Shown piece by piece: positions 38,055 to 50,293 of a stretch of DNA of 64,000 bases; position 1 is the stretch's first letter; each line of letters opens with the position of its first letter. The stretch lies in the IMG/VR virus record IMGVR_UViG_3300021387_000452. One strand, given 5' to 3'. The notes under the pieces are model-generated. The model did no database searches. It worked only from the letters and a program-made list of their open reading frames with translations, and had not been told where the DNA came from. The stretch is from a virus (lineage: Duplodnaviria; Caudoviricetes). The translations under genes were made by a program, and so were the position numbers.

Positions 38055-38498
38055 TTAACCTTCATTACTAGGAGATTCTGAGTCTGTCAGGGCTTCTTTC
38101 AACTGCTGTAATGTCGACGATGACATGCCGCGAAGCAAATTATAAATTTCATCCACACGAGCTGTGTTGTCAGTATCAATAGCCTGCTTTGATATCTGAC
38201 TACAAATAGTCATAATTTCAGCCTGAGCTTTCTTTGCCTCTTTGTATCTAGCATTGAGCTCTTTAACATCAAGCTTCTGAACATCTACATTATATAGTCT
38301 ATCTTCTGCTTCAGAAATAAACTTATTCAATGTGTTTAATCTAGTCAAAGATGCTGCTGAGAAATAACTTAGATACGCAGCCAACTTTCGCGCTAACAAA
38401 GTCAAGTTATTACTTAACTCAACTGGTATATCAGCAACTACTGCAGCATCAATAATATCTCTTGCCTTATCATCTCTCTTTTTAAGTTCATTCTTCAT
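38055..38498 (-). CDS. hypothetical helical protein
   Basis: 147-aa ORF overlapping the upstream stop (ATGA), implying translational coupling. Confidence 0.65.
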   Translation of the reverse strand: MKNELKKRDDKARDIIDAAVVADIPVELSNNLTLLARKLAAYLSYFSAASLTRLNTLNKFISEAEDRLYNVDVQKLDVKELNARYKEAKKAQAEIMTICSQISKQAIDTDNTARVDEIYNLLRGMSSSTLQQLKEALTDSESPSNEG

Positions 38499-39376
38499 GG
38501 CTTTAACACATCTTTTGATTTAAGAATTCGATCTATAACAGCTGGAGTTTTATCATATTTATTAGATAAATCTTCTACACTAAGGCCATCATCATGATCT
38601 TCTAAAATAGATAAGTCAGTCAAAAGATTTTTAATGTAACTAGTCGATGGGATATTGAACTTGTCTTCCTGAAAGACATCCAAAAATGGAAGGAATTTAT
38701 CTCCAAGCAACTGATATAGTGTATTAAAATAATTCTGCCCCAAAGAAGCATCTAAACACTTTGCTAAATTCTCTATTTGATCTTCTGTATAATCATCGTA
38801 AATTGAAATCAAATCACATGGAGTCTTCATATTCTTAACCTCTGAATAAGCTTCCCAGTCTTTTACATCATCAAGCATCCCGTCTTGCTTACTATGAGAA
38901 CCGTTACTCTTAAATAGATCCCAAGTACGTCGTGAAATATCTCTAAATGAGTCTATCGAATCAATAGTAAGATCATGCATGTCAATGAGATCTGACTTAA
39001 TCTCAAATGACTTTGGATATACTACGCATCTGTCAAGAACTTCATCTTCTGTACTTACAAGACGATTAGATCTAAATACAAAGTTTGAAACAGAATTTCG
39101 AATTCTAGTAAATAAAATGTTCCTAAGATTATTAGTCTCTGCATCTGAATTACTAGCTGCAACTTTCTTAAAGAAAGCTACACAGTCTGTTGTAGCCAGT
39201 GAGCATAAATCTTCTTTATTAAAGTGCTCTAAATACTTATAGAAGTACTTTGTAATAACTACGCTTGCTAATGTAGAAATATAATCCCAGCACTGCTGAT
39301 TAGGTACTCCATCTGTTAAAAAATCACATATACGTGGTATTGGAGCGCTATTCGTATCTGATTTCCGTCTAGCCAT
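38495..39376 (-). CDS. putative phage transcription factor: sigma region-2-like N-terminus plus Mor-family HTH C-terminus
   Basis: KEDLCSLATTDCV...NLRNILFTRIRNSVSNF resembles sigma region 2; LYQLLGDKFLPFLDVF..KFNIP...GLSVEDLSNKYDKTPAVIDRIL resembles Mor activators. Confidence 0.55.
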   Translation of the reverse strand: MARRKSDTNSAPIPRICDFLTDGVPNQQCWDYISTLASVVITKYFYKYLEHFNKEDLCSLATTDCVAFFKKVAASNSDAETNNLRNILFTRIRNSVSNFVFRSNRLVSTEDEVLDRCVVYPKSFEIKSDLIDMHDLTIDSIDSFRDISRRTWDLFKSNGSHSKQDGMLDDVKDWEAYSEVKNMKTPCDLISIYDDYTEDQIENLAKCLDASLGQNYFNTLYQLLGDKFLPFLDVFQEDKFNIPSTSYIKNLLTDLSILEDHDDGLSVEDLSNKYDKTPAVIDRILKSKDVLKP

Positions 39377-39433: not shown

Positions 39434-40111
39434 CTAGAGATTCATTAATGAAAACTTAATAAACGATACACAGCAGTCGTATGTAAGTGTATCATTCTTA
39501 AACAGAAATTCAAGAACATCGCCATAGTCTTTTAACTGAGTACCGCATAAATCTGACGGTGGCTTGAGACGCTTAATATGAAAGTCTTTGTCTGACCCAG
39601 AATGTTTCATGCATATTCTATGAAACCCTTCATTTCCAGCTGTATCATTATCAAATGCGCAATAAACAGTACTGCTTGTACCTTTTAAGAAATTCATGCA
39701 ATCAACTGATACTGATACGCCATTTGTAGCTATAACAAATGGATAGAAATTCCTTAAAAAGTCTGAGTCTAAGGCTGATTCTACAATTACCCATGGCTTA
39801 TAGAATGGCTTAGAATTTACTCCAGCTCCGTATGGTATGTACTTGCACTCACTGTGATAACGAAACTGCTTGCTTGTAATTGCTCTTACTACAAGACCAA
39901 TGACTTCTCCATTAAGAATATTTGGCATAACTATGCACTTACCATTATCAGATACAAATGATCTGAAATAAGCATCAAACTTATCATAACGATAAACGTC
40001 ATAGCCTGTTATTAGTCTATATGGATTGTTAAAAGCAAGTGAGTATGAAGCATACTTGTTATATGGCTTATCTATCTGCGGCAATGAATAAAAATACTCA
40101 GTGAGATTCAT
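39434..40111 (-). CDS. DNA primase (TOPRIM catalytic domain only)
   Basis: IVMPNILNGEVIGLVVR, VIVESALDS, VYCAFDNDTAGNEG, KDYGD. Confidence 0.85.
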   Translation of the reverse strand: MNLTEYFYSLPQIDKPYNKYASYSLAFNNPYRLITGYDVYRYDKFDAYFRSFVSDNGKCIVMPNILNGEVIGLVVRAITSKQFRYHSECKYIPYGAGVNSKPFYKPWVIVESALDSDFLRNFYPFVIATNGVSVSVDCMNFLKGTSSTVYCAFDNDTAGNEGFHRICMKHSGSDKDFHIKRLKPPSDLCGTQLKDYGDVLEFLFKNDTLTYDCCVSFIKFSLMNL

Positions 40112-40113
40112 TA

Positions 40114-40758
40114 CTAATCACCTGCATAGTCAGAAGAATCTTTCAATGTAAATCTACCATGCTCTGCAAAATATGTTCTATCACTGTACTCCATAAACTT
40201 TGGATCGTGAGTAATAAGAACTATTGACAGACCTGTGTCATCACATAGCCCATGAAGAAATTCCATAAACTTTGGAATGTATGTTTTAGACAGCTGAGAA
40301 AACTGCTCATCTAAGAACATGTAGTTCGACACATTTGGTAAATTAATAATGTAGAATATCTGAATGATAGATGCTATAACAACAAGGATACCACCAGCAA
40401 TGTTTGAATCTTTAACAGGAATCAAATTTCCATCATCATCTAGAAGTAATTCAACGCATTTAACGTTTCGTTTCTCAACGACTCTAATTTTGATAGAATA
40501 ATTTCTGTCAAAGAATATCTGCTTCAAACCTACTGTTAAAAGGCTTTCTAGCTTCTTCAGAAGTGAATCTGAAAACTTATTGATTAAATCATCAATAATA
40601 GGTTTGCACATCTTTAGCACACTTTGTTCATATTGTAAATCATCTATCTTAAAAGATAATTCATCAATTGACTTCTGCGTACTATCAATAGATGATTGAA
40701 TCCCACGGTACTTAATTAGTAAATTAGTAATATCACTTTCAAATTCTGCATCAATCAT
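40114..40758 (-). CDS. SbcC/Rad50 ATPase, C-terminal half
   Basis: Short coiled coil, signature NIAGGILVV, Walker B MFLDEQFSQL, H-loop LITHD; no Walker A. Confidence 0.85.
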   Translation of the reverse strand: MIDAEFESDITNLLIKYRGIQSSIDSTQKSIDELSFKIDDLQYEQSVLKMCKPIIDDLINKFSDSLLKKLESLLTVGLKQIFFDRNYSIKIRVVEKRNVKCVELLLDDDGNLIPVKDSNIAGGILVVIASIIQIFYIINLPNVSNYMFLDEQFSQLSKTYIPKFMEFLHGLCDDTGLSIVLITHDPKFMEYSDRTYFAEHGRFTLKDSSDYAGD

Positions 40759-40766
40759 ATTAGCTT

Positions 40767-40919
40767 CTATTCACTGTAGACAAAGGCTGTTCTTGCATCA
40801 ACATTAACAACTGCTTTAGCATATGTCATATCAATGACTCGCAAACCAGCTGAATAGCTAACTACAAAGTCTCCATAAAATGGATCGTCTACTAATTGAG
40901 AATAACTAATAACGAACAT
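40767..40919 (-). CDS. small hypothetical protein (50 aa, absent from ORF track)
   Basis: GGAGG RBS, ATG at 40919, MFVISYSQLVDDPFYGDFVVSYSAGLRVIDMTYAKAVVNVDARTAFVYSE, TAG at 40767. Confidence 0.7.
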   Translation of the reverse strand: MFVISYSQLVDDPFYGDFVVSYSAGLRVIDMTYAKAVVNVDARTAFVYSE

Positions 40920-41318
40920 ACTACCTCCAGTCTTGTAAAGAAAAGAAATCTTCTATTCTTATTTACATCAACTAGCGGTGAAAGTTAATTTCAGCTCATA
41001 GTTGTGCTGAGAATCATCTCAGATTCACATTATAAGCAGATCATATATTTATATGAATTCTGCTATAATCACTCTAGAGTGTGATTTCAAACTACAACGG
41101 TGACCAAATAGCGCGGGACTCTCAGCAAAGATTTTCTCTTTGGTTGAAAGAGGCATGAATCATGTGCTAGCACATGATGAATAATGAACGAAATTTCTTT
41201 AGATTGAACTGGATGACTTTTAGTCATCTTCTATTCTATTATAGAATATTTATTTTATTTATTTATATTATTAATAAAATAAACATTATTTGTTCTTTTT
41301 TGAAGAAGAAGATTAGGA

Positions 41319-41355
41319 AGGAGATTAGGATTAAGATTAGAATTGAGATTAGAGT
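41319..41355 (+). repeat. 37-bp direct repeat, copy 1 (GATTAG-like hexamer iterons)
   Basis: AGGAGATTAGGATTAAGATTAGAATTGAGATTAGAGT identical at 41828-41864. Confidence 0.95.
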
Positions 41356-41827
41356 AGAAATTTGATTCGATCATCGACAGATGATCGATAGTTCAAATTC
41401 ATAAGTTCAATATAATTATTGAACTTTCATCAATTCAATCATTCTAGAATCAGTCACTCTTTCATCCGAAAGAGTTTTTCTAATAGAAGTTCTTCAGAAA
41501 TTTCGATGTTCATCTTCAGCTGAACAAGTTGTTTTTGATCATTTACAAATGCTATGAACATGCCACTCATAATTGCTTCCCAGCAAAGTAGGCCACCCTC
41601 TCCTTTCGACGCGGCATGATAACCGGATTGGCGAGTATGTGCCATGAGTGCGTTCTGATTATAGATCATGAAGAGATATAGATAGTAGTAAGTCAGATCT
41701 GTTGGATTATAGCAATCATATAGTAGAGCAGATTAAGAATGCGCGATTCAGCTCTGTGATTTTAATCAGTATGATCAGTGAATTAGACAGATTGAGATTT
41801 TGGAGTTTTTGGAGGAGGAGATTGGGG

Positions 41828-41864
41828 AGGAGATTAGGATTAAGATTAGAATTGAGATTAGAGT
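41828..41864 (+). repeat. 37-bp direct repeat, copy 2
   Basis: Identical to 41319-41355, 509 bp downstream. Confidence 0.95.
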
Positions 41865-42297
41865 GGTTGAGAGTTTTCCTACAAAGATTTTTATCGTCAG
41901 CTTCAGATTTCACCCAAGCACGCCATTCGGCAGAGTCATATTGAAATTCTAGAAATAATTAAGACCATCCCTATTTCCACTCTACTTAACTCTATTGCTG
42001 AGTCAGTTTAGACTGAATGAAACCTCTTATGGTAACTGATGATCGTGAGGCATTATTTCATGCTTATGAGAATTTCGACTCTACCTTATGGATTTTATTG
42101 TTTGTACCGATCTTTAGCGGGATTTGTACATTGACTTTTATGTGAATTCCGTAGCACTCACATCAATGTAATTCTACACCCACACACGGGTTTGACACTG
42201 TTAGAAATCTCTAAATCAATCCGTGATGAAATAGAGCGTGAATAAGTACAACGTTGCTACTATAATATACAAGTAGCAGACGTTAAATTTAACAAAT

Positions 42298-42333
42298 AAA
42301 AGCTCAGCTACAAATTTCTTCATAGCTGAGCTT
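42298..42333 (-). terminator. terminator downstream of dNK gene
   Basis: AAAGCTCAGCTA/TAGCTGAGCTTT stem with T-rich tail on minus strand. Confidence 0.7.
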
Positions 42334-42391
42334 TACAAAGATCATGAGCTACTTGAAAGTAACCGCATTTAATATAATAGATATTGAGTAG

Positions 42392-43024
42392 TTAGACATA
42401 GTTCATTTCATCATTTTTAACTGAAGCGCTGTAGCTGTTTATTGCTTGATTTACATTTTCATAAACGATGTCAGCATTTGGAGTTGCATCTATTGTAATA
42501 ATGTTTGTATGTTTACTAAGCTTTTCTAACACTGTTTTATATGCTTTATTCAAACTCTTTAGATATTTGAGTGGAATTTCTGATTCGCAGTCTCTAGATC
42601 TTTCTTTAATTCTCTCAAGAGTTTGTTCTGGACTTAGCTGCAGCCAGATCACAACGTCTGGATATGCTGTTTGAGCAGTGATTATTCTATGCATGTTAAT
42701 GTACGTGTTATATTCATCATCTGTAAAATAACCATGATCATGCTGCAGCATAGCAAAAGCAAAGTCAGAATATATTGAGCTGTCAAGAATTACAGTCTCG
42801 CCTTTCATTGACTTCATGAAGGCTTCTTGGACTTGCTTATATCTTTCCCACAAATAATACACCTGTAGAGTAAAACTCCATCTATTTGGATCTTTATAGT
42901 AATCGCTTAGAAATGGATTGCTATCAACTGGTTCCTCAAACACAGTGTAGCTATTATTACTAGCTAGCTTATTTACAAGCGTAGATTTGCCCGTGCCTAT
43001 AAGCCCAAGAATAGATACTATCAT
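42392..43024 (-). CDS. deoxynucleoside kinase (dNK family)
   Basis: GLIGTGKST P-loop, EEPVDSNPFLSDYYKDPNRWSFTLQ, PDVVIWL, RIKERSRDCE lid, YLKSLNKAY. Confidence 0.92.
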   Translation of the reverse strand: MIVSILGLIGTGKSTLVNKLASNNSYTVFEEPVDSNPFLSDYYKDPNRWSFTLQVYYLWERYKQVQEAFMKSMKGETVILDSSIYSDFAFAMLQHDHGYFTDDEYNTYINMHRIITAQTAYPDVVIWLQLSPEQTLERIKERSRDCESEIPLKYLKSLNKAYKTVLEKLSKHTNIITIDATPNADIVYENVNQAINSYSASVKNDEMNYV

Positions 43025-43078: not shown

Positions 43079-43810
43079 TTACTCGATAAAGTTGTCTAAG
43101 AAGTGGTCAATGAGATTATCTTTTGCTGTATTTAAAGAATTTGATATAGTACCAACGACTTTCCCGTTATACTCAGTCTTAAAGCTGTCTATATCGTCAG
43201 CAATGATTGTATATTCAGCAATAAGATCTGGGTTATAAATACCAACCACAGCTATGCCAAGATTAGCATATTTGCTATCAACTTCTACAACAACACCAGA
43301 GTCATATTCATCAGATAGAGAGTCTTCAATATCTTGTCTTATGCTTTCACAGTCCATACCACTAAGAGACACAGCTTCTAATTTACGTGTTCTTTTTTCA
43401 TACTGTCTCTTTCTATTATTTTGCAGTATTTCAAGAATGAACTTCGCTACAGTGTTTACATCTTTATCAAGACTGAATGGCTTAAGAGTGTCTATCTTAA
43501 GATTATTTTTATCAAATGCTGTACAATACATATTATTTCTATCAGGCCCACTAATGATGAAGCTTACGTTATTATATGCATCGTCAGCTGTAAGAACAAG
43601 ATGAAACTGCTGCTTTTCACCAGTCTTTGTTGGTGCTTCACTTGTATGAAGAACTTTTCCGATTGTTGGATATTTACTAAAGAGCTTGTTTGTAAATGCT
43701 GGCTCATCTGATCTCTTTGGTTTGCCAAAACCAAGAAATTCATTTTTCTGTTTACCATTGATGAGTCTTTCTAATCGACTCACTCTATCTTCAAGAGTAG
43801 GTCTTTTCAT
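43079..43810 (-). CDS. hypothetical protein with LEDRVSRLERLI leader (putative head-packaged protein)
   Basis: MKRPTLEDRVSRLERLINGKQKNEF N-terminus. Confidence 0.7.
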   Translation of the reverse strand: MKRPTLEDRVSRLERLINGKQKNEFLGFGKPKRSDEPAFTNKLFSKYPTIGKVLHTSEAPTKTGEKQQFHLVLTADDAYNNVSFIISGPDRNNMYCTAFDKNNLKIDTLKPFSLDKDVNTVAKFILEILQNNRKRQYEKRTRKLEAVSLSGMDCESIRQDIEDSLSDEYDSGVVVEVDSKYANLGIAVVGIYNPDLIAEYTIIADDIDSFKTEYNGKVVGTISNSLNTAKDNLIDHFLDNFIE

Positions 43811-43821
43811 ACGATCACCTC

Positions 43822-44163
43822 TCAGTCTTCATCATCTTCGTCATCTGCATAATAGTCTACATCAGCAGAGTAGCCGAGTGTGTATAGGTCACCACATACT
43901 CCGTTTAATAGAGCATAGATGCTATCTCCGGCTTCTGGATCTCCGCCAAAGTCTTCTATAGCTTGATCACATTTTTTAGCATCATCTAATAGAGCATTAA
44001 GAGTTTTCCATGATTTCTTTACAGCAACTAGTATTCTATCAAATGGAGCTCTAGCATTATCATCATTTGCGATGCTTGTGTATAAGCCCTCATTTTTAGT
44101 TCTTGAAATTTTTAGTAAATTTTCTAATCTAGATATCCTAGACTCTAAAGTAGACTTTTTCAT
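43822..44163 (-). CDS. hypothetical acidic protein with LESRISRLENLL leader (putative head-packaged protein)
   Basis: MKKSTLESRISRLENLLKISRTKNEG N-terminus. Confidence 0.7.
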   Translation of the reverse strand: MKKSTLESRISRLENLLKISRTKNEGLYTSIANDDNARAPFDRILVAVKKSWKTLNALLDDAKKCDQAIEDFGGDPEAGDSIYALLNGVCGDLYTLGYSADVDYYADDEDDED

Positions 44164-48828: not shown

Positions 48829-49029
48829 TTAATCATCACTGGTGTCTTTTTCAACTTCTGGAGCTGCTCTTCCTATTGATGCATAATATTGCTTTTTTGC
48901 GTCTTGCCAATCATGATATGAATTCATTATTGCAACGCACGAAGTGCCTTTAAATGAGGCATGATATTTCTTTTCACACTCATCCATTTTTTGTTTAAGT
49001 TCTTCAGAAGTTGGTTTACGTGTCTGCAT
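48829..49029 (-). CDS. small hypothetical protein
   Basis: GGAG RBS before ATG at 49029 (MQTRKPTSEELKQKMDE...), overlapping the stop of the SbcC N-half. Confidence 0.6.
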   Translation of the reverse strand: MQTRKPTSEELKQKMDECEKKYHASFKGTSCVAIMNSYHDWQDAKKQYYASIGRAAPEVEKDTSDD

Positions 49030-50293
49030 GAGAATTCTCCGAGTGTAAGTAGCTGCCGCATAATGGGCAGATCTTGAATGATGATAGCTCATCATCTATT
49101 TCATTGCATTTATTATTTATAGCTGACAACTCACAATCTGTAGCTAATAGACTTACCATTGACTTGTGAGCTATTATAGCATCATCTATAGAAGTAATAT
49201 CTACCTGATTCAGTCTTGATGTCTCATCAATTAGCTTACATAGTTTATCTCTTAAAATGATCTTATCACTATACTCAACAATGTCACTAATGAAACTATC
49301 TTTGTCAAGCAAAGATTCAGCTCTAACTATGATAGAGTGTAGAACCTCTAAATCACTCACTTTTTTATTACATCTCTTCATCATAGTATTTAACAAAGCT
49401 ACATCATTAAGTTCACTGTATAGTGATTCTGCACATCTATAGCTATTGTCTATAGCTATAGACTTGCTAATAAACTCACTGAGTTTTTTAATGCTATGAA
49501 GATGATCACCGCATTTACAAATCTCAATCAAAGACTCAAGCTTAGATAATGATATTTCTATATTAGACACAATTCGATTAAGATTATCTAACTTAGTCTC
49601 ACATAGTGTAGCTAGTTGTAGCTTATAAAGAAGATCATTTATTTCTGATAAGTTTGAGCTCACATGCTTATATGTGGTGTATTTACTGTATAGATCTTCT
49701 ACTGGTCGAAGCTTACTTTCTTGAACTCTTAGCCCAATTAGACTTTCGTTTAACTGATCACGTACTTTCAATGTCGTGTTTATTTCATTATTATTTGATT
49801 TTACATCAACATTGTAGCAGTCATTGATTTTAGAAATATCGAATTGACTTCTATACGTAAGAACGTTATACAGAGTAGACTGACTTCCAAAGATTAAAAA
49901 CGGTGTTGAAAACTGCATATTAAAATTAAAGTTTATGCTATCACCGTTTATGTCTATGTCACCAAGCTTAAGAATATCATTAGCTGCTGAAAGAGATTGT
50001 CTACCTACTTTTGAGTATTTTTCTCCATTCACTACATAATAGAACTTATCTCCTTTTGACTTTGTGAATCTAGAGTATTCTATTATGTTATCATCGCACG
50101 CAATAGAAACATGCATCGACTCTTTTCCAAATGAGATATCACTATCTGAGAACTCATTTACAGCTATATTGTGTATGCTTCTTAGCAGAGTGGATTTCCC
50201 AGATCCACTTGAACCAACTATTAAATTTATTCCTGGAACAAATTCTACATCACAGCTATCAATAACACCAACATTTTTTAGCTTTACTTTCAT
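49016..50293 (-). CDS. SbcC/Rad50 ATPase, N-terminal half ending at the zinc hook
   Basis: VKLKNVG, PGINLIVGSSGSGKSTLL (Walker A), Q-loop NMQF, ~250-aa coiled coil, terminal CPLCG. Confidence 0.88.
   Translation of the reverse strand: MKVKLKNVGVIDSCDVEFVPGINLIVGSSGSGKSTLLRSIHNIAVNEFSDSDISFGKESMHVSIACDDNIIEYSRFTKSKGDKFYYVVNGEKYSKVGRQSLSAANDILKLGDIDINGDSINFNFNMQFSTPFLIFGSQSTLYNVLTYRSQFDISKINDCYNVDVKSNNNEINTTLKVRDQLNESLIGLRVQESKLRPVEDLYSKYTTYKHVSSNLSEINDLLYKLQLATLCETKLDNLNRIVSNIEISLSKLESLIEICKCGDHLHSIKKLSEFISKSIAIDNSYRCAESLYSELNDVALLNTMMKRCNKKVSDLEVLHSIIVRAESLLDKDSFISDIVEYSDKIILRDKLCKLIDETSRLNQVDITSIDDAIIAHKSMVSLLATDCELSAINNKCNEIDDELSSFKICPLCGSYLHSENSHADT

What the first reader, a model, noticed from the sequence alone, without database searches (positions are those of the whole stretch)
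40930..42290. ~1.4-kb hairpin-saturated non-coding island in a gene-dense genome: large ncRNA or replication origin
Seen: no credible CDS, but back-to-back inverted repeats: CTGAGA/TCTCAG (~41007), CACTCTAGAGTG (~41070), 20-bp perfect palindrome ATCATGTGCTAGCACATGAT (41159-41178), GATGAC/GTCATC (41212), TCGATCATC/GATGATCGA (~41367), AAGTTCAATA/TATTGAACTT (~41403), ACTCTTTC/GAAAGAGT (~41456), bulged long stems TACATTGA..TGTGA/TCACA..TCAATGTA (~42127-42170) and CACGG..TTGA/TCAA..CCGTG (~42185-42225). A GTATATTATA promoter-like motif at 42261-42270 points into the region on the minus strand, and there is an AT-rich tract at 41240-41300. It lies upstream of the SbcC-C and primase genes. Inference: bulged stems favour a large structured RNA (ROOL/GOLLD scale), whereas iterons plus an AT-rich tract near primase favour an origin. 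It could be both, i.e. a transcription-primed origin.
Basis: partly seen in the sequence, partly recalled or inferred. Interest (0 to 1): 0.75.

Follow-up and report, generated by a model that had tools for sequence, protein, structure and literature searches.

The report
Phage RNA gene beside origin-like repeats
In a family of large gut and rumen phages, an undescribed folded RNA of about 370 bases always sits just upstream of short repeats and the most AT-rich stretch of the genome, so it may be the transcript that opens a replication origin; neither its expression nor origin activity has been shown.

Summary
The hairpins are real (20 versus 5.7 ± 2.4 in shuffles), but the island is a cassette, not one 1.4-kb RNA. 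On the minus strand: terminator, phage promoter, a ~370-nt structured RNA (42255-41888), a 59-nt G-free repeat of 12-bp period, an optional insert, a second repeat copy, the record's only extreme AT tract, a CCGCG-type motif, then the SbcC/primase operon. All 18 RNA copies examined in related phages keep promoter, RNA, repeat and AT tract in this order. Two different RNA folds fill the slot; both show compensatory changes, neither matches Rfam. One genome has a second cassette far from replication genes. Best reading (0.45): a transcription-coupled origin of the T4 oriE/oriF or lambda type. Main rival (0.3): a stand-alone RNA ended by Rho on the C-rich, G-free repeats. Skew does not support a bidirectional origin; no expression data were obtained; rRNA mimicry and repeat templating failed their tests. 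First-stage notes of this scan saw this layout in another genome.

The parts
42392..43024 (-). Upstream gene, deoxynucleoside kinase (not a fixed neighbour in relatives)
   Evidence: Pfam dNK E=2e-50; other genes occupy this position in relatives
42299..42334 (-). Intrinsic terminator that insulates the cassette
   Evidence: 16-pair stem plus U run; arms conserved in L007; a terminator upstream of the promoter in 16 of 18 copies
42261..42272 (-). Phage promoter motif (TGTATA-type) driving the RNA
   Evidence: 11 coding-strand versus 2 opposite-strand sites in G000; 4-9 nt before the RNA in 11 copies, 344-393 nt upstream in front of one small ORF in 7 copies
41888..42255 (-). Structured non-coding RNA, type I, about 370 nt (ends inferred)
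   Evidence: 81% identical to L007 while four-fold sites of SbcC-C are 47% identical; compensatory changes; no Rfam match
42209..42236 (-). RNA hairpin 1; its loop GGAU can pair with AUCC at about 42090-42094 (pseudoknot, invariant so unproven)
   Evidence: 8 pairs, 100% paired, 4 with changes on both sides; pseudoknot 96% paired, no covariation
42107..42189 (-). RNA core domain: nested stems with an invariant internal loop and a variable long hairpin
   Evidence: three helices 96-100% paired, 6 of 12 pairs with changes on both sides
42090..42106 (-). ACAA-rich linker, the only motif shared with type II RNAs
   Evidence: alignments; type II model hits here weakly, 14 bits, E=0.006
41929..42085 (-). 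Variable multi-branch domain closed by a long stem whose sequence differs among relatives but stays paired
   Evidence: single-sequence folds of window, L007, L009, L017; read by eye, not counted on an alignment
41895..41924 (-). Conserved terminal bulged hairpin followed by an A run (not a terminator)
   Evidence: invariant flanks and a G-C to C-G change
41806..41864 (-). Repeat copy 1: 59 nt, 12-bp period, no G on the transcribed strand
   Evidence: inside the longest G-free run of the record (89 nt)
41356..41805 (-). Optional insert between the repeat copies, with a small conserved motif at 41728-41752, a second motif at about 41560-41632 and palindromes at 41367-41475
   Evidence: 58% identity to L007; first motif also in L007, L004, L014, L017, L019, L029; absent from single-repeat relatives
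41297..41355 (-). Repeat copy 2, directly abutting the AT tract
   Evidence: 92% identical to copy 1; 12-bp period before the AT tract in 9 of 14 loci
41232..41294 (.). AT-rich tract, candidate DNA unwinding element
   Evidence: unique in G000; present in all 14 full loci
41159..41178 (.). 20-bp palindrome kept as a palindrome with changed letters in close relatives
   Evidence: alignment with L007, L004, L005, L008
41110..41119 (-). CCGCG/TTCCG-type motif about 120 nt after the AT tract
   Evidence: found in 12 of 14 loci, 51-254 nt after the tract; CCGCG is the top enriched 5-mer
41029..41057 (-). Sigma-70-like promoter candidate for the downstream operon
   Evidence: 10 of 12 consensus match only; chance level is not excluded
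40767..40919 (-). Conserved 50-aa gene of unknown function
   Evidence: called in most relatives; no Pfam, PHROG or Atlas hit
39434..40758 (-). SbcC-like C-terminal half (40114-40758) and primase (39434-40111)
   Evidence: PHROG SbcC-like and DNA primase matches

Best explanation
The island is a transcription-coupled replication-origin cassette. Shown from sequence: a promoter, insulated by a terminator, points into a folded RNA of 320-400 nt that is followed at once by short-period repeats, the strongest AT tract of the genome and a conserved GC motif, with no strong intrinsic terminator in between. Inferred: RNA polymerase reads through the RNA into the repeats and AT tract; a phage protein binds the repeats; the tract melts, helped by the transcript or by transcription-driven supercoiling; the phage helicase and primase load, possibly with the transcript trimmed by the phage 5'-3' exonuclease as leading-strand primer. 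The fold of the RNA would license or time this step, as in ColE1 RNA II. What the fold binds is unknown.
For: Order promoter, RNA, repeat, AT tract kept in all copies examined despite unalignable repeat sequences. 12-bp period in 9 of 14 loci, as in the T4 oriE repeats (PMC3016281). The strongest AT tract lies in the cassette in G000, G001, G002, G004 and G005. Two different folds fill the same slot. G001 has a second cassette (RNA, repeat, insert, repeat, AT tract) 60 kb away with no replication operon behind it; its RNA is closer to other phages' copies (72-75%) than to the resident one (61%), so RNA and AT module appear to travel together. In most relatives the downstream operon has its own promoter motif. 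Primase, DnaB-like helicase and a 5'-3' exonuclease are encoded.
Against: Total GC skew follows gene strand and does not turn at the island in G000, G001 or G002. Four-fold-site skew peaks 3-4 kb downstream in three genomes and 13-20 kb downstream in two, and with the sign opposite to a bacterial-type origin. The transcript over the repeats has no G, which from general knowledge disfavours a ColE1-type hybrid. Repeat copy 1 follows the RNA without an AT tract, which fits a 3'-end signal. No initiator protein was identified. Linkage could be hitchhiking.
Confidence: 0.45

Rival explanations
1. The RNA is a stand-alone non-coding RNA acting in trans, and the repeats are Rho-loading (rut) tails that end each RNA unit. 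The AT tract is then a release zone, an upstream promoter element, or an origin that works independently of the RNA.
For: The repeats have 0-3 G in 42-93 nt on the transcribed strand in every locus, with many pyrimidine-C pairs, and are the longest G-free runs on that strand in five of six records. This matches the rut definition: C-rich, G-poor, unstructured, YC pairs 9-13 nt apart (PMC9160355). A repeat copy follows the RNA and another follows the insert. No intrinsic terminator ends the RNA. Related genomes carry many tRNA-like and other RNAs.
Against: The phage uses strong intrinsic terminators elsewhere. 12-bp arrays occur only in the island in G000 and G001. It does not explain why the AT tract and the GC motif stay attached, also in the ectopic copy. 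The host and its Rho are unknown.
Confidence: 0.3
2. The repeats, AT tract and palindromes are a genome end, packaging or recombination site, and the RNA is a packaging or structural RNA.
For: Many relatives' contigs begin inside this region. Palindromes are kept as palindromes on both strands.
Against: Repeats and AT-rich DNA break short-read assemblies anyway. Several long contigs run through it. G001 has two cassettes.
Confidence: 0.08
3. The type I RNA imitates parts of the 16S rRNA 5' domain (helix 16 internal loop, helix 15) and titrates ribosomal protein uS4.
For: One invariant block matches best at the start of helix 16 in all three 16S sequences tested. Helix 16 nucleotides 410-432 matter for S4 binding (PMC2665224).
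Against: Local alignment scores equal those against reversed 16S. Block p-values were 0.02-0.8 without correction. A helix-16 descriptor scored L017 at 14, chance sites in two phage genomes at up to 15, and did not pick up the window's own RNA. Neither RNA model hits rRNA. Type II shows no such likeness.
Confidence: 0.08
4. The RNA is a cis-regulatory leader or antiterminator for the SbcC-primase-helicase operon.
For: Same strand, upstream, no strong terminator in between.
Against: It lies 300-1000 nt from the first gene, most relatives have a separate promoter motif before that gene, and the second G001 copy has no such operon downstream.
Confidence: 0.07

Closest known systems
T4 oriE and oriF/oriG (PMC3016281)
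   Same: [quoted passage not shown]
   Different: T4 minimal origins are about 100 bp and the review describes no conserved folded RNA there; no sequence likeness; the role of the oriE repeats is itself unproven.
Lambda ori and iteron plasmid origins (PMC5043065)
   Same: Repeats next to an AT-rich tract, transcription running into the origin, replication genes adjacent.
   Different: Lambda iterons are 19-bp inverted repeats inside gene O, and plasmid iterons are phased with the helix; here the period is 12 bp, direct, intergenic and G-free on one strand. No O or Rep homologue was identified.
ColE1 RNA II (PMC5043065)
   Same: Several hundred nucleotides of RNA transcribed toward an origin.
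   Different: No G-rich hybridisation tract on the transcript here, no antisense RNA I seen, and ColE1 has no iterons (last point from my own knowledge).
ROOL and GOLLD (PMC12286853)
   Same: Large phage RNAs of unknown function with pseudoknots and kissing loops.
   Different: No Rfam match; 320-400 nt, against more than 800 nt for many GOLLD; tied to a repeat and AT module, not to the main tRNA cluster.
Rho utilisation sites (PMC9160355)
   Same: C-rich, G-poor, unstructured, YC pairs at 9-13 nt spacing, no intrinsic terminator.
   Different: Natural rut sites are not usually exact tandem arrays (own knowledge), and here the array abuts a unique AT tract.

Membership tests
ROOL / GOLLD / any Rfam family | Match to the family covariance model | tested here: not met
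   No hit at gathering threshold in the window, only chance-level hits by E-value in the island and in five relatives' loci
ROOL / GOLLD / any Rfam family | Size near or above 600-800 nt and position near tRNA islands | tested here: not met
   316-403 nt; main tRNA clusters are elsewhere, though degenerate tRNAs lie just upstream in some relatives
Conserved structured ncRNA | Conservation above neutral sites and compensatory base changes | tested here: met
   81% versus 47%; type I 10 pairs and type II 22 of 48 pairs with changes on both sides, 0 of 500 shuffles as high; few independent lineages, structures derived from the same alignments
Conserved structured ncRNA | Expressed as a discrete transcript | not testable with these tools
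T4-type R-loop origin | Promoter upstream of an AT-rich unwinding element, same direction | tested here: met
   but the distance is 400-1300 nt, against about 100 bp in oriF/oriG
T4-type R-loop origin | Persistent RNA-DNA hybrid used as primer | not testable with these tools
   Needs R-loop and RNA-DNA junction mapping
Iteron origin (lambda, plasmids, T4 oriE) | Array of repeats adjacent to an AT-rich tract | tested here: met
Iteron origin (lambda, plasmids, T4 oriE) | Cognate initiator protein binding the repeats | tested here: inconclusive
   No initiator family among ten neighbours; the 293-aa gene has a weak HTH or sigma-like signal, the 50-aa gene has none
Bidirectional origin | Cumulative GC-skew minimum at the site | tested here: not met
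Rho-dependent terminator | C-rich, G-poor, unstructured tract with spaced YC pairs | tested here: met
Rho-dependent terminator | Rho-dependent 3' ends downstream | not testable with these tools
   No RNA data, host unknown
Retron / telomerase-like RNA-templated repeat system | Reverse transcriptase in the genome and a template matching the repeats | tested here: not met
   No RVT_1 in G000, G001 (95% complete) or G002; no consistent own-RNA match to the repeats
16S rRNA uS4-site mimic | Significant sequence and structure match to helices 3, 4, 16 and their junction | tested here: inconclusive
   Suggestive helix-16 likeness, not above chance

The most novel reading that the evidence does not exclude
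A mobile phage origin cassette whose firing depends on a dedicated, pseudoknotted RNA of 320-400 nt, with two different RNA folds doing the same job: an RNA-controlled origin class more elaborate than T4 R-loop origins and independent of ColE1.
Probability: 0.25. Interest if true: 0.85.

Novelty: new variant of a known kind. Interest (0 to 1): 0.62.

Why it matters
Origins of large uncultured phages are almost never located, and most large phage RNAs have no functional clue. Here two undescribed RNA families come with one: they are always attached to an origin-like module, even when the block moves. If the coupling is functional, it adds a new case of RNA control of replication initiation. If not, the two RNAs are still new covarying folds with pseudoknots, suited to structure work, and the repeats would be an unusually clean natural Rho-loading array.

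Tried and rejected
One 1.4-kb RNA: rejected, since conservation and covariation are limited to about 370 nt and the middle folds like shuffles. Protein coding: only short ORFs, and the 71-aa sense-strand one spans DNA deleted in L007. tRNA, tmRNA or any Rfam family: none. RNA-templated repeats: no reverse transcriptase, no template match. 16S/23S mimicry: not above chance. Homology of type I and II over their length: only the short linker is shared. Occurrence outside this phage family: none in cultured phages; pattern hits in other viral contigs and bacterial genomes lay in unrelated, mostly coding DNA and did not score with the models. Skew as origin evidence: uninformative or contrary. Exchange of RNA types across the protein tree: two changes needed, but one origin is not ruled out. 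Ribozyme and group I/II intron likenesses recalled from memory did not hold on inspection. My structure strings were mis-registered for three helices and for the pseudoknot; each helix is cited from the call where it was correct. Literature searches found no description of this RNA, but the candidate lists of PMC10690425 could not be read.

Full report
Setting. The window lies in a 111,771-bp virus record estimated 52% complete. All long ORFs are on one strand, and the island is by far the largest gap between genes. Relatives found through the SbcC-like protein come from gut and rumen assemblies and reach 255 kb; cultured phages hold no close relative.

Observation. The listed hairpins exist and exceed chance: 20 perfect stems against 5.7 ± 2.4 in shuffles. 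They are not evenly spread. The second copy abuts the only extreme AT tract of the record, 41232-41294. Rfam and ARAGORN find nothing.

The RNA. A close relative, L007, spans the whole island. The segment 42255-41888 is 81% identical, the repeat 80%, the insert 58% and the last part 52%, while four-fold sites in the next large gene are 47% identical. The same RNA (type I) occurs in L009, L065, L017-L019, L029 and, shortened, L023. Hairpin 1 is fully paired with four of eight pairs changed on both sides; three core helices are 96-100% paired with six of twelve changed; no shuffle reaches the score. A loop-to-linker pseudoknot is 96% paired but invariant, so unproven. About four independent lineages are represented and the structure was derived from the same alignment, so this is good but not formal covariation evidence.

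A second fold in the same slot. Ten other loci carry a different RNA of 317-341 nt (type II). It is 96% paired over 48 pairs, 22 with changes on both sides, including a kissing interaction in which all six pairs covary and a 5'-end pseudoknot with two. The two types share only a short ACAA-rich linker; cross-model scores are weak. Neither was found outside this phage family.

The cassette. In 18 copies the promoter motif lies 4-9 nt upstream (11 copies) or in front of one small ORF about 350 nt upstream (7 copies), usually behind a terminator, and only weak terminator-like sites lie between the RNA and the AT tract. For type I the 5' end was partly set by the promoter; for type II it is set by conservation. 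Repeats follow the RNA directly. Their sequence differs between phages, but a 12-bp period precedes the AT tract in 9 of 14 loci, and a CCGCG/TTCCG motif follows it in 12 of 14. Some phages have one repeat block; others, like this one, have two copies around an insert with further small motifs. G001, 95% complete, has a second cassette 60 kb away on the other strand, without a replication operon; its RNA resembles other phages' copies more than the resident one.

Mechanism. Promoter plus AT-rich unwinding element defines T4 oriF and oriG, and 12-nt repeats mark oriE (PMC3016281). Repeats, an AT tract and transcriptional activation define the lambda origin, and a long transcript primes ColE1 (PMC5043065). 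The phage encodes primase, a DnaB-like helicase and a 5'-3' exonuclease. I therefore favour a transcription-coupled origin in which the folded RNA is the 5' part of the activating transcript (0.45). Every functional step is inferred. Skew gives no support: it follows gene strand, and four-fold-site skew turns the wrong way for a bacterial-type origin, although T4 also has origins away from skew transitions.

Main rival. The repeats are almost free of G on the transcribed strand in every locus and form the longest such runs in five of six records. That is the definition of a Rho-loading site (PMC9160355), and it explains why one copy follows the RNA without an AT tract. The RNA would then act on its own (0.3). 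This does not explain the attached AT tract and GC motif, and both readings could hold in part.

Rejected or weak. No reverse transcriptase and no template for the repeats. A likeness of the type I core to 16S helix 16 was tested four ways and did not beat chance. Genome-end and leader models are possible but less supported.

Comparison and novelty. It is not ROOL, GOLLD or any Rfam family (PMC12286853). It looks like a T4/lambda-type origin in layout but fails the skew test for a bidirectional origin and has no identified initiator. Literature searches found no description; unpublished or supplementary candidate lists may hold it. Earlier first-stage notes of this scan described the same layout in another genome; they are unchecked and are not counted as support.

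Verdict. Real feature; two apparently undescribed structured RNA families tied to an origin-like module; new variant of a known kind; interest 0.62. No expression data could be obtained.

Noticed in passing
window 41728-41752 (minus); L007, L004, L014, L017, L019, L029: A 25-nt motif in the insert with a small covarying hairpin; it occurs with both RNA types and only in two-repeat cassettes.
   Followed up: partly
window about 41560-41632 (minus); L017:5150-5225; L029: A second insert motif (hairpin with a UAUCA loop, then a stem ending near GCAU) shared with distant relatives but deleted in L007; no family match.
   Followed up: partly
L001:4270-4340; G001:C1:146405-146460 and 146584-146625: A third insert motif beginning CTGTACGG, twice in the second G001 cassette and once in L001; possible small pseudoknot.
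   Followed up: no
L013:4788-5043; L070:927-991; L072:3003-3066; L017:4204-4291: Degenerate tRNA-like genes with shrunken or odd anticodon arms lie just upstream of the cassette in several relatives.
   Followed up: no
L023:3056-3425; G001:C1:133032-133398: Relatives encode a tmRNA; tags read DNDNIEFALAA (by eye) and ANDDIELAIAA (ARAGORN), which may help to identify the host.
   Followed up: no
L017:5425-5535: A pure AAT triplet run of over 100 nt replaces the 12-bp array before the AT tract in this lineage and varies in length between strains; it recalls DnaA-trio repeats (from memory).
   Followed up: no
G001, G004, G005 genes 3-4 kb downstream of the cassette: Four-fold-site GC skew on the coding strand changes from G-rich to C-rich; may reflect gene class or a replication boundary.
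   Followed up: partly
window 38495-39376 (minus): Conserved 293-aa protein with a weak Mor-like HTH at the C terminus and a lead-level sigma-70-like signal; candidate phage transcription factor or origin-binding protein.
   Followed up: partly
window 49016-50293 and 40114-40758 (minus): The SbcC-like ATPase appears split in two genes on either side of the island, 8 kb apart; the N-terminal assignment is from its Walker A motif by eye.
   Followed up: no
window 43079-44163 (minus): Two unrelated proteins start with the same short LExRxxRLE tag, also seen in relatives.
   Followed up: no
L010:5653-5997: The 50-aa gene is followed by a 59-aa paralogue-like gene in this relative, and was not called in L007 or L013.
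   Followed up: no
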